Positions 34,674 through 34,732 of a DNA stretch of 64,000 nt are shown piece after piece. The notes beneath the pieces are model-generated. The model did no database searches and had not been told where the DNA came from. It saw only the letters and a list, made by a program, of their open reading frames with translations. Source of the stretch: Escherichia phage BEU50; sequence record OM632671.1. One strand, written 5' to 3'. The position numbers and the translations under genes are program-made. Positions within the stretch are counted from its first letter, which is position 1, and each line of letters begins with the position of its first letter.

Positions 34674-34703
34674 GTTTACAACATGGTAGAGTTGTGATAC
34701 TAT
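34674..34703 (+). promoter_or_regulatory. T4-type early promoter with 9 bp dyad around -10
   Basis: GTTTAC, 18 nt, TACTAT; GGTAGAGTT … AACTCTACC. Confidence 0.6.
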
Positions 34704-34732
34704 AACTCTACCAACACAATGAGGAAAACAGA

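What the first reader, a model, noticed from the sequence alone, without database searches (positions are those of the whole stretch)
34674..34712. Early promoters whose -10 element lies inside a perfect dyad (promoter-stem-loop cassettes)
Several GTTTAC-N17/18-TATAAT-like promoters have the -10 hexamer in the loop of, or flanked by, inverted repeats: GGTAGAGTT/AACTCTACC here, GGTACAGG/CCTGTACC at 38711-38741, GGAGCA/TGCTCC at 32562-32583, AGATTT/AAATCT at 22922-22946, CCTCTT/AAGAGG at 7201-7240. Such promoter-plus-hairpin modules have been proposed to mediate modular shuffling in T4-type phages. Here they sit at boundaries of accessory ORF blocks.
Basis: partly seen in the sequence, partly recalled or inferred. 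Interest (0 to 1): 0.4.

Follow-up and report, generated by a model that had tools for sequence, protein, structure and literature searches.

The report
T4 early promoters embedded in hairpins
In this T4-like phage many early promoters sit inside a conserved stem-loop that can form only in RNA reading through from an upstream promoter. This is the published "PeSL" promoter-stem-loop cassette, and here one subset is predicted to hide the next gene's ribosome-binding site in such read-through RNA.

Summary
All five dyads exist at the stated places. The window has 15 GTTTAC-N17/18-TAnnnT promoters, all on the + strand (2.2 expected). Pairing between each promoter's spacer and its own downstream sequence far exceeds shuffles and non-cognate controls (window P=6e-5; T4 and 73 promoters from several genera, 0 of 20,000 permutations). 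Individually, 34674, 38702, 7190 and an unlisted one at 12195 are significant. 32548 is marginal but conserved. 22911 is at chance level.

Orthologous promoters in other Tevenvirinae genera keep the pairing with entirely different arm sequences. One-sided changes give G·U on the sense strand. The promoter's own predicted 5' leader is unstructured. So the hairpin is selected and can form only in read-through RNA.

I see three layouts:
- Arms flank the -10 (34674, 38702, 12195, 32548).
- An anti-SD arm in the spacer pairs with the Shine-Dalgarno (7190, which is regB; weakly 38258).
- The hairpin lies wholly inside the spacer (29958, 31142, 45610).

The kind is already published as PeSL (Arbiol 2010; Comeau 2014), including stem-loops overlapping the -10. 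Two of the promoters (32548, 38702) sit exactly at block boundaries versus T4. The hairpins lack U-tracts, so they are not classical terminators. Verdict: a new member of a known kind. The SD-masking subclass is a possibly undescribed twist.

The parts
34674..34703 (+). Focal early promoter (T4 Pe133295 equivalent, between cd.3 and cd.2): -35 GTTTAC 34674-34679, extended -10 TGa-TACTAT 34695-34703. Predicted start near 34710.
   Evidence: T4 has the same promoter. The start site is inferred from sigma-70 geometry and was not measured.
34684..34713 (+). Stem-loop around the -10 (arms 34684-34693 / 34704-34713, loop 10 nt). It starts 13 nt after the cd.3 stop (34669-34671) and ends 7 nt before the cd.2 SD (34720-34726); ATG at 34733.
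   Evidence: RNA MFE -17.2 kcal/mol, z -4.68, 0 of 200 shuffles. The own-start transcript 34710-34735 folds at 0 kcal/mol. Conserved in T4 with one U·G. Rank 1 of 73 against foreign partners.
38702..38743 (+). Gene 30.7 early promoter (-35 38702-38707, -10 TATTAT 38725-38730) with an 11-bp stem, 38709-38719 / 38733-38743; ATG at 38772.
   Evidence: MFE -17.9, z -3.61. Orthologues in at least 6 other genera keep the pairing with different arms. 6 of 13 pairs show changes on both sides, and 86.9% of cells are paired against at most 41.5% when slid. T4 homology block starts exactly at 38702.
32548..32583 (+). Early promoter (-35 32548-32553, overlapping the pseT.1 stop TAG 32546-32548; -10 TATAAT 32572-32577) with a 6-7 bp stem, GGAGCA 32563-32568 / TGCTCC 32577-32582. 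It heads a cassette (32548-33092; ORFs of 99 and 63 aa) that T4 lacks.
   Evidence: z -1.80, marginal alone. Rank 1 of 13 in the window. Conserved in L026, L030 and L036, with a U-to-C change turning G·U into G-C. T4 motB promoter paralogue has GGGACC/GGTCCC. Boundary.
7190..7249 (+). regB early promoter (-35 7190-7195, -10 TATAAT 7214-7219). Its spacer arm 7196-7210 pairs with 7228-7242, which contains the regB SD AAGAGGAG 7233-7240; ATG at 7247.
   Evidence: MFE -21.4, z -5.94. SD-core unpaired probability 0.00 in the read-through RNA against 0.64 in the own transcript. Identical in T4 at 62797. The gene is RegB by PHROG, E=6.7e-78.
12195..12255 (+).
   Evidence: MFE -19.0, z -5.61. The T4 orthologue AAGTTGACAAGATTA/AATCTTGTCAACT is fully Watson-Crick, and the window's A-to-G changes give G·U on the sense strand only.
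22911..22948 (+). rnh early promoter with an AT-rich 6-bp dyad, AGATTT 22921-22926 / AAATCT 22943-22948.
   Evidence: Present, and also in T4, but z +0.10, duplex -4.1 kcal/mol, rank 8 of 13. Not distinguishable from chance.
38258..38331 (+). Gene 30.8 early promoter. Spacer arm 38264-38279 (TCTCCTG...) pairs weakly with the SD region 38311-38324 (..CCTGGAGAA). Weak SD-masking type.
   Evidence: Duplex -11.8 kcal/mol. SD unpaired probability 0.11 long against 0.50 own. The T4 30.8 promoter does the same with CCTTTG/CAAAGG.
29958..29987 (+). rnlA early promoter with a hairpin wholly inside the spacer (29965-29983, TACCACAA-gga-TTGTGGTA).
   Evidence: spacer MFE -8.0, z -5.5.
31142..31171 (+). 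alc early promoter with an in-spacer hairpin, 31149-31166 (AACACC-aaggaa-GGTGTT).
   Evidence: MFE -7.3, z -5.5. In T4 the alc promoter is instead of the SD-masking type.
45610..45639 (+). Early promoter with an in-spacer hairpin, 45618-45631 (ACACA-tgga-TGTGT).
   Evidence: Orthologues at the same position in other genera have covarying stems CCAC/GTGG, GCAC/GTGC, TCAC/GTGA, ATCC/GGAT.

Best explanation
These are PeSL-type composite elements: strong sigma-70 'early' promoters of a T-even phage (Tequatrovirus). The spacer, the -10 hexamer and the first transcribed bases together encode an RNA stem-loop.

**How the hairpin is gated.** The promoter's own start site lies inside or 3' of the stem. 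A transcript started at that promoter therefore lacks the 5' arm and has a structure-free leader. A transcript arriving from an upstream promoter carries both arms and folds. The hairpin thus marks read-through RNA.

**SD-masking layout (window: regB promoter 7190; weakly 30.8 at 38258).** The 3' arm is the Shine-Dalgarno. The gene should be translated only from its own early promoter and silenced on read-through RNA. This is the logic known for T4 e, soc, 49 and I-TevI, but with an early promoter.

**Arms flanking the -10 (the focal 34674, plus 38702, 12195, 32548).** The hairpin sits between the upstream stop codon and the downstream SD without covering the SD. I infer it acts as an intercistronic barrier on read-through RNA. 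It could be an attenuator, as measured for one RB49 PeSL stem-loop, or a 3'-exonuclease or processing stop that separates the upstream message from the downstream cistron.

**Side effect.** The shared promoter sequences also serve as crossover points for cassette exchange.

**Shown versus inferred.** Shown here: the existence of the elements, their excess over chance, the covariation, the sense-strand bias, the unstructured own leaders, the predicted SD occlusion and the block boundaries. Inferred: the start sites, that read-through RNA exists and folds in vivo, and the effect of the hairpins that flank the -10.
For: - **Promoters.** 15 matches, all on the + strand, against 2.19 expected.
- **Pairing across the start site is specific to each promoter's own partner.** Window: -10.6 against -7.4 kcal/mol, P=6e-5. 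T4: 34 promoters, -12.0 against -8.3, 0 of 20,000 permutations. 73 non-redundant promoters from several genera: -14.5 against -8.9, with 49% against 6.9% at or below -15 kcal/mol.
- **Structure exists only across the start site.** Own 5' leaders average -0.70 kcal/mol (z +0.23). Spacer-to-ATG averages -14.5 (z -3.40, P=5e-19).
- **Covariation.** At the 30.7 promoter the arms differ completely between genera while pairing is kept. 6 of 13 pairs changed on both sides.
- **Sense-strand bias.** For the -10-flanking type, sense is more stable than antisense in 23 of 24, with 30 against 6 G·U pairs. Under symmetric selection the split is 26 against 9, P=0.004.
- **SD masking (25 of 73 promoters).** SD-core unpaired probability is 0.11 in read-through RNA, 0.51 in own RNA and 0.33 with foreign spacers (P~1e-6).
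- **Read-through is plausible.** No convincing + strand terminator lies between 32548, 34674 and 38702; the + strand hits have weak stems of 3-4 G-C pairs.
- **Literature.** PeSL definition and the RB49 stem-loop reporter result (PMC2839356). The e/soc/49/I-TevI precedent (PMC3014915).
Against: - No transcript data were available. Start sites are predicted from promoter geometry, not mapped.
- For the -10-flanking hairpins, SD accessibility does not differ between long and own transcripts (0.52 against 0.55). Translational gating therefore does not explain the focal element, and its proposed barrier or attenuator role is inference.
- They have no U-tract: on average 1.8 T and 5.3 A in the 10 nt after the stem.
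- The SD-masking group shows no sense/antisense asymmetry.
- G·T wobble is also tolerated in a single-stranded DNA hairpin of the non-template strand, so a DNA-level role on that strand is not excluded.
- Class thresholds (-10 kcal/mol) were my own choice.
- In such compact intergenic regions the spacer may simply be the only free place for a hairpin.
Confidence: 0.62

Rival explanations
1. The stem-loops are true transcription terminators or attenuators that isolate each promoter-ORF cassette from upstream transcription. This is the PeSL authors' reading.
For: Arbiol 2010 report that the stem-loop of RB49/phi1 PeSL211/210, placed between a promoter and lacZ, lowered expression about as much as the rrnB T1 terminator. 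The hairpins lie in intergenic positions and form only in upstream-initiated RNA.
Against: No U-tract follows them; the tails are A-rich, with 1.8 T in 10 nt. The terminator scan finds none of them. T-even stems are weaker and more AT-rich than the G4/C4 stems of RB49. The SD-pairing type has loops of about 20-30 nt between its perfect arms, unlike terminators. The lacZ assay cannot separate termination from effects on mRNA or translation.
Confidence: 0.2
2. The dyads matter only at the DNA level as recombination linkers or hotspots (PeSL-mediated modular shuffling, mini-circles, hairpin-mediated template switching). Any RNA folding is incidental.
For: Block boundaries fall at 32541/32548 and 38702 versus T4. 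A promoter-core swap with a half-promoter remnant is seen between L026 and L028. The T4 record notes that the 14 bases between the cd.2 promoter arms were once reported as their inverted complement. Mini-circle data in Arbiol 2010.
Against: Homologous exchange needs similarity between copies, yet the arms differ from promoter to promoter and between orthologues while complementarity within each promoter is preserved. The sense-strand G·U bias and the SD pairing are not predicted by a duplex-DNA role. The focal promoter is not at a boundary.
Confidence: 0.1
3. The dyads are operators for a dimeric DNA-binding protein (for example a factor that shuts off early promoters), or they are cruciforms.
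For: The dyads overlap the -10, where a repressor would act. The shut-off of T4 early promoters is described as not fully understood (PMC3014915).
Against: There is no shared arm sequence. Arms are replaced wholesale between orthologues with pairing kept, which fits a nucleic-acid helix and not a protein site. G·T on one strand means A·C on the other, which disfavours cruciforms. Loops of about 20-30 nt between the arms of the SD-pairing type do not fit an operator.
Confidence: 0.04
4. Chance complementarity in AT-rich sequence, or a by-product of promoter consensus elements (ACAC...GTGT around the extended -10).
For: The 22911 dyad is at chance level (z +0.10) and 32548 is marginal (z -1.80). 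In-spacer stems reuse the conserved GTG of the extended -10.
Against: Shuffle tests. Non-cognate controls that keep all consensus features. Covariation.
Confidence: 0.03

Closest known systems
PeSL (promoter-early stem-loop) cassettes of T4-type phages: Arbiol et al. 2010 (RB49/phi1), Comeau et al. 2014 (PST/T4, nt-1/KVP40); earlier IP-locus elements of Repoila et al. 1994 (as cited by those papers)
   Same: Both are intergenic composites: upstream stop codon, early promoter, stem-loop, SD and start codon. The stem-loop lies between -35 and -10 or overlaps the -10, and G-T pairs are noted. They are repeated many times in early regions and found next to indels and replacements between relatives.
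   Different: RB49 stems are G4/C4-rich on near-consensus TTGACA promoters, whereas here they are weaker, varied stems on GTTTAC promoters. The Comeau 2014 legend places the PST stem-loops just upstream of the promoter, whereas here they lie inside or around it. The published reading is terminator plus recombination linker. The passages I read do not describe pairing of the spacer with the SD, covariation across genera, or the read-through-only logic. I could not see the figures or read Repoila 1994.
T4 'promoter inside an RBS-sequestering hairpin' control of genes e, soc, 49 and I-TevI (Uzan & Miller 2010, PMC3014915, section 29)
   Same: The 5' arm of an SD- or AUG-sequestering helix lies upstream of a proximal promoter's start. 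Long transcripts are therefore untranslatable and the short transcripts are translated. This matches the predicted behaviour of the regB promoter at 7190.
   Different: The known cases use late (or middle) promoters to delay translation until late infection. Here the proximal promoter is an early one, so the predicted effect is the reverse: translation confined to the early burst. The focal 34674 hairpin does not touch the SD at all.
Rho-independent (intrinsic) terminators
   Same: A stable RNA hairpin in an intergenic region, on the sense strand.
   Different: No U-tract; A-rich tails. Not picked up by the terminator scan.
Intercistronic stabiliser hairpins (REP-like 3' barriers) in polycistronic bacterial mRNAs (my own knowledge, not tested here)
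   Same: A hairpin a few bases after a stop codon with no terminator tail. This is a candidate role for the hairpins that flank the -10.
   Different: Those elements are not built into a promoter, and they do not disappear from a subset of transcripts.

Membership tests
T4-type early promoter | GTTTAC (-35) spaced 17-18 nt from TAnnnT (-10), often with an extended -10 TGn; co-oriented with early genes and just upstream of an SD and start codon | tested here: met
   15 matches, all on the + strand, against 2.19 expected. 13 have an SD and ATG within about 60 nt. TGa precedes TACTAT at 34695-34697.
T4-type early promoter | Transcription initiates there early in infection | not testable with these tools
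   No RNA data. The T4 orthologue is annotated in GenBank as early promoter Pe133295.
PeSL cassette | Stem-loop associated with the promoter (between -35 and -10, overlapping -10 or -35, or adjacent) | tested here: met
   Definition in PMC2839356 sect. 14.
PeSL cassette | Composite intergenic layout: upstream stop codon in an AT-rich stretch, promoter, SD and start codon of the next ORF | tested here: met
   Upstream stop codons lie 0-4 nt before the -35 at 32548, 34674, 38702 and 7190, and the SD and ATG lie downstream.
PeSL cassette | Repeated element enriched in variable regions and found at indel or replacement boundaries between close relatives | tested here: inconclusive
   Met for 32548 and 38702 versus T4 and for the L026/L028 swap. 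Not met for 34674 versus T4. No genome-wide breakpoint statistics were run.
PeSL cassette | Stem-loop reduces downstream expression (terminator/attenuator); pairs of PeSLs recombine into mini-circles | not testable with these tools
   Experimental features from Arbiol 2010.
Intrinsic terminator | GC-rich hairpin followed at once by a run of U | tested here: not met
   Mean 1.8 T in the 10 nt after the -10-flanking stems. Absent from the terminator scan.
RBS-sequestering hairpin with an internal promoter (e/soc/49/I-TevI type) | The SD or AUG is base-paired in the long transcript, the 5' arm lies upstream of the proximal start site, and the short transcript is open | tested here: met
   Met by prediction for 7190 (regB): SD unpaired probability 0.00 against 0.64. 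Weakly met for 38258. Met in 25 of 73 promoters overall.
RBS-sequestering hairpin with an internal promoter (e/soc/49/I-TevI type) | The same feature applied to the focal element at 34674 (and to 38702, 12195) | tested here: not met
   The stem ends 7 nt or more 5' of the SD. SD accessibility is 0.71 long against 0.80 own at 34674, and the -10-flanking group averages 0.52 against 0.55.
Curated RNA families (Rfam 15) | A match at gathering score to any family | tested here: not met
   0 matches in the whole window on both strands.
Protein operator (dyad-symmetric binding site) | A shared half-site sequence across sites and conservation of sequence rather than of pairing | tested here: not met
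   Arms differ between promoters and between orthologues while complementarity is kept.

The most novel reading that the evidence does not exclude
Across the Tevenvirinae, the 17-18 nt spacer of early promoters doubles as a regulatory RNA arm.

- In about a third of the promoters sampled, an anti-SD tract (CTCC/CCTC) placed right after the -35 pairs with the Shine-Dalgarno of the next gene. This includes T4 regB, denV, alc, nrdC.8 and motB.2.
- Those proteins would then be made only from transcripts started at their own early promoter, and would switch off when early promoters shut down, even though read-through RNA persists.
- In another third, a self-contained hairpin around the -10 keeps the promoter sequence from interfering with the downstream SD, or marks a transcript boundary.

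If so, this is a family-wide layer of translational control gated by where a transcript begins. The PeSL papers and the T4 reviews I could read do not describe it.
Probability: 0.45. Interest if true: 0.6.

Novelty: new member of a known kind. Interest (0 to 1): 0.4.

Why it matters
T4 early genes sit in long co-oriented arrays with a strong promoter before many small ORFs, so most messages exist in two forms: promoter-proximal and read-through.

If the promoter itself encodes a structure found only in the read-through form, the phage can tell the two forms apart at no extra sequence cost. It could confine toxic or early-only proteins (RegB, Alc, DenV) to the first minutes. It could also make each promoter-ORF cassette behave the same wherever recombination drops it. 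That would help explain how the hyperplastic regions of T4-type genomes tolerate constant cassette exchange.

For annotation, it also means that dyads around the -10 in these phages should not be read as operators or terminators.

Tried and rejected
- **RNAalifold on a plain MAFFT alignment** of 14 orthologous 30.7 promoters gave no consensus structure, because the helices are out of register between genera. I replaced it with a register-matched alignment of 10 sequences.
- **Average SD accessibility over all 73 promoters** against a mononucleotide-shuffled spacer showed no effect (0.461 against 0.480, P=0.26). The effect appears only after separating the SD-pairing class and using foreign spacers as the control.
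- **An 'insulator' idea for the -10-flanking hairpins.** The effect was weak (0.52 against 0.45, P=0.026), so it is not relied on.
- **Single-protein locus searches in IMG/VR** gave only 2 and 14 near-identical loci. An alignment query was needed to reach other genera.
- **Promoter annotation.** AF158101 and NC_000866 carry no promoter features apart from one misc_feature.
- **Literature.** Searches for an explicit prior description of early-promoter spacers pairing with the SD found nothing. Miller 2003 (PMC150520) and Repoila 1994 (PMC395341) are not held, so prior description cannot be excluded.
- **Rejected explanations:** intrinsic terminator (no U-tract), protein operator (no shared half-site), and chance (except at 22911).

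Full report
**What the window is.** The region around the finding is 98% identical to Escherichia phage a20 and other Tequatrovirus genomes. Its + strand runs in the T4 early-transcription direction. Comparison with T4 gives this local order:

- rnlA (30015-31139), alc, pseT.3/.2/.1
- a cassette absent from T4 (32548-33092)
- pseT (33093-33992), cd.5/.4/.3
- the focal promoter, then cd.2 (34733-34969)
- a DAHP-synthase insert, then cd (36082-36663)
- 31.1, 31, rIII, 30.9, a divergent 30.8 (38329-38697), then 30.7 (38772-39137)

All five dyads are in the sequence.

- The focal one is longer than reported. It is a perfect 10-bp stem, TGGTAGAGTT 34684-34693 / AACTCTACCA 34704-34713, whose 10-nt loop holds the -10 TACTAT (34698-34703, preceded by TGa).
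- The 38702 dyad is 11 bp.
- The pattern GTTTAC-N17/18-TAnnnT occurs 15 times, all on the + strand, against 2.19 expected.
Stems spanning the -10 sum to 81 bp against 61.8±3.5 in shuffles (0 of 2000). Five stems are at least 6 bp against 1.28 expected (P=0.0055). Two are at least 8 bp against 0.09 expected (P=0.0025).
- A stricter control keeps every consensus feature by pairing each promoter's spacer plus -10 with the downstream segment of other promoters. Cognate pairs average -10.6 kcal/mol against -7.4 for non-cognate pairs, P=6e-5. Promoters 7190, 12195, 32548, 34674 and 38702 each rank first of 13.
One of the five listed dyads is therefore at chance level.

**It is general and under selection.**

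- T4 has the same stems at the cd.2 and 30.7 promoters.
- Using a gp30.7 alignment I fetched 34 loci of about 20 kb from several Tevenvirinae genera, and six annotated genomes.
- At the orthologous 30.7 promoter the arms are replaced wholesale while pairing is kept. Examples: TTGGTACAGGT/ACCTGTACCAA here, GGTGAGAGTC/GACTCTCACC (Erwinia phage Gravdalen), GCTGATTGAGTGT/ACACTCAATCAGC (Edwardsiella phage PEi20), TGGTGTAGGAGTA/TACTCTTACACCA (Klebsiella phage pzk-kv8) and CTCCGTTGTAT/ATACAACGGAG (Gelderlandvirus-like loci).
- On a register-matched alignment, 6 of 13 pairs have changes on both sides. 86.9% of cells pair, against at most 41.5% when the partner is slid by 1-3 columns.
- Over 73 non-redundant promoters, cognate duplex energy is -14.5 against -8.9 kcal/mol, and 49% against 6.9% reach -15.
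- In T4 alone (34 promoters) the figures are -12.0 against -8.3, with 0 of 20,000 permutations reaching the observed mean.

**It is an RNA-level, read-through-only structure.**

- One-sided substitutions give G·U on the sense strand (L033, L039, L050, pzk-kv8, T4 cd.2, window 12195 against T4).
- For stems that flank the -10, the sense strand folds better than the antisense in 23 of 24, with 30 against 6 G·U pairs. With selection made symmetric the split is 26 against 9, P=0.004.
- From the predicted start (7 nt after the -10) to the ATG, leaders fold at a mean of -0.70 kcal/mol, slightly less than shuffles (z +0.23). From the spacer to the ATG the mean is -14.5 (z -3.40, P=5e-19).
- The tool folds of the own-start transcripts of 34674, 38702 and 7190 are all 0 kcal/mol.
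- The structure therefore exists only if the RNA begins upstream. No convincing + strand terminator lies between successive promoters in 29.5-40.5 kb.

**Three layouts (thresholds are mine).**

| Layout | Share of 73 | Window examples | Predicted effect on the SD |
|---|---|---|---|
| Arms flank the -10 | 24 | 34674, 38702, 12195, and in substance 32548 | SD left free (0.52 long, 0.55 own) |
| Anti-SD tract after the -35 pairs with the SD | 25 | 7190; weakly 38258 | SD-core unpaired 0.11 long, 0.51 own, 0.33 with foreign spacers (P~1e-6) |
| Hairpin wholly inside the spacer, loop aAGGAa | 15 | 29958, 31142, 45610 | No clear effect; hairpin enriched over shuffles, P=1.5e-5 |

- The 7190 promoter drives regB, and its helix is identical in T4.
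- In T4 the SD-pairing type also occurs at denV, alc, nrdC.8 and motB.2.
- The same orthologous promoter can be of one type in one genus and another type elsewhere (30.7; alc).
- Stems of the -10-flanking type are followed by A-rich sequence with no U-tract, so they are not classical terminators.
- No Rfam family matches anywhere in the window.

**Comparison with what is known.**

- Arbiol et al. 2010 define PeSLs as early promoter plus stem-loop. They state that the stem-loops most often lie between -35 and -10 or overlap the -10, and they mark G-T pairs. They read the stem-loops as terminators or attenuators, with one stem-loop tested in a lacZ reporter, and as recombination linkers.
- Comeau et al. 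2014 extend PeSLs to PST/T4.
- The T4 reviews I could read list RBS-sequestering hairpins with an internal promoter only for e, soc, 49 and I-TevI, which use late promoters. They say nothing about dyads in early promoters.
- The kind is therefore known and this is another genome carrying it.
- What I did not find described: the covariation across genera, the sense-strand bias, the structure-free own leaders, and the SD-pairing subclass at early promoters. Key older papers are not held, so I cannot claim priority for these points.

**Cassette boundaries.**

- Against T4, homology ends at 32541, 7 nt before the -35 of the 32548 promoter. That promoter heads two ORFs absent from T4.
- Homology resumes exactly at 38702 after a non-homologous 30.8 allele.
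- Two IMG/VR phages whose flanks match at nearly every aligned position differ by a swapped promoter core, with a half-promoter remnant left behind.
- The focal 34674 promoter lies inside a homology block, so the boundary claim holds for some of the promoters and not for all.

**Mechanism, committed.**

- The hairpins are PeSL-type elements that fold only in read-through RNA.
- Where the 3' arm is the SD, they should confine translation to promoter-proximal early transcripts. The sequence evidence for this is strong but there is no experiment.
- Where the arms flank the -10, as at 34674, I infer an intercistronic barrier or attenuator role.
- Recombination at the shared promoter sequence is a likely side effect rather than the selected function, because selection visibly preserves pairing rather than sequence.
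- Confidence in this overall reading is 0.62.

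Noticed in passing
window ~6158, ~17017 and ~24537: The window is not collinear with any known T-even genome. Segment 6158-17016 (regB ... pin, homing endonuclease, truncated nrdD) lies between rIIA and the start of gene 37. Gene 59 stops after about 19 codons at 24482-24538 and is joined to nrdA.1, so rIIB to 38 and 59-32-frd-td are missing. None of 50,697 phage records spans any of the three junctions. This may be a chimeric assembly, a multiply deleted or rearranged genome, or a spliced sequence.
   Followed up: partly
T4 NC_000866 133300-133313 (L001 5301-5314); orthologue of window 34694-34705: The T4 record carries a misc_feature: 'inverted complement of previously reported sequence; corrects the early promoter Pe133295'. 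Those 14 bases are exactly the loop between the two arms of the cd.2 promoter hairpin. Either an old sequencing artefact at a hairpin, or a real loop flip between inverted repeats in a laboratory stock.
   Followed up: partly
window 29965-29983, 31149-31166, 45618-45631; loci L026 17610, L035 16299, L038 18713, L039 16387, L052 16656 and others: A third promoter layout: a 4-8 bp hairpin wholly inside the spacer. Its 3' arm reuses the GTG of the extended -10 and its loop is almost always aAGGAa or aTGGAa. The stems covary (CCAC/GTGG, GCAC/GTGC, TCAC/GTGA, ATCC/GGAT). The conserved SD-like loop is unexplained.
   Followed up: partly
window 32548-33092: A promoter plus two small ORFs (99 aa, phrog_2364; 63 aa) sits between pseT.1 and pseT where T4 has nothing. 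The pseT.1 stop codon TAG shares its G with the -35 GTTTAC.
   Followed up: partly
window 34826-36081: T4 cd.1 and the end of cd.2 are replaced by a 55-aa ORF and a 330-aa phospho-2-dehydro-3-deoxyheptonate aldolase (DAHP synthase) gene, 35090-36082, an auxiliary metabolic gene shared with phage a20 and relatives. Neither end of this replacement coincides with a strong promoter.
   Followed up: no
L026 5700-5790 versus L028 5620-5710: Two nearly identical IMG/VR phages carry different promoter cores before the same gene. One has arms flanking the -10 and the other has an in-spacer hairpin. L026 also keeps an orphan '-10 plus leader' remnant (TACTATAGACCTATCAAC) upstream, like the 'half PeSLs' of Comeau 2014.
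   Followed up: partly
T4 promoters at 27080, 53943, 55384, 70696, 146875, 163673, 167086: At least seven T4 early promoters share a near-identical -10 plus initial transcribed sequence, GGTACTAT-ACAACTATCAACTAC(TGATACGGA). This is a long repeated leader that could serve as the recombination 'linker' homology. Window promoters share a looser AGACYTRTACCAAC leader.
   Followed up: no
window 13927, 46421, 58835: Three of the 15 perfect promoter-pattern matches have no cross-start pairing and no convincing downstream SD/ATG geometry. 13927 lies just upstream of pin, as in T4 at 47452. 46421 and 58835 may lie within coding sequence, which was not checked. They may be weak or non-functional sites.
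   Followed up: no
window 15206-17103: A homing-endonuclease ORF (273 aa) is followed by an NrdD fragment (361 aa, matching profile positions 105-431 of 718) that ends at the 17017 junction.
   Followed up: no
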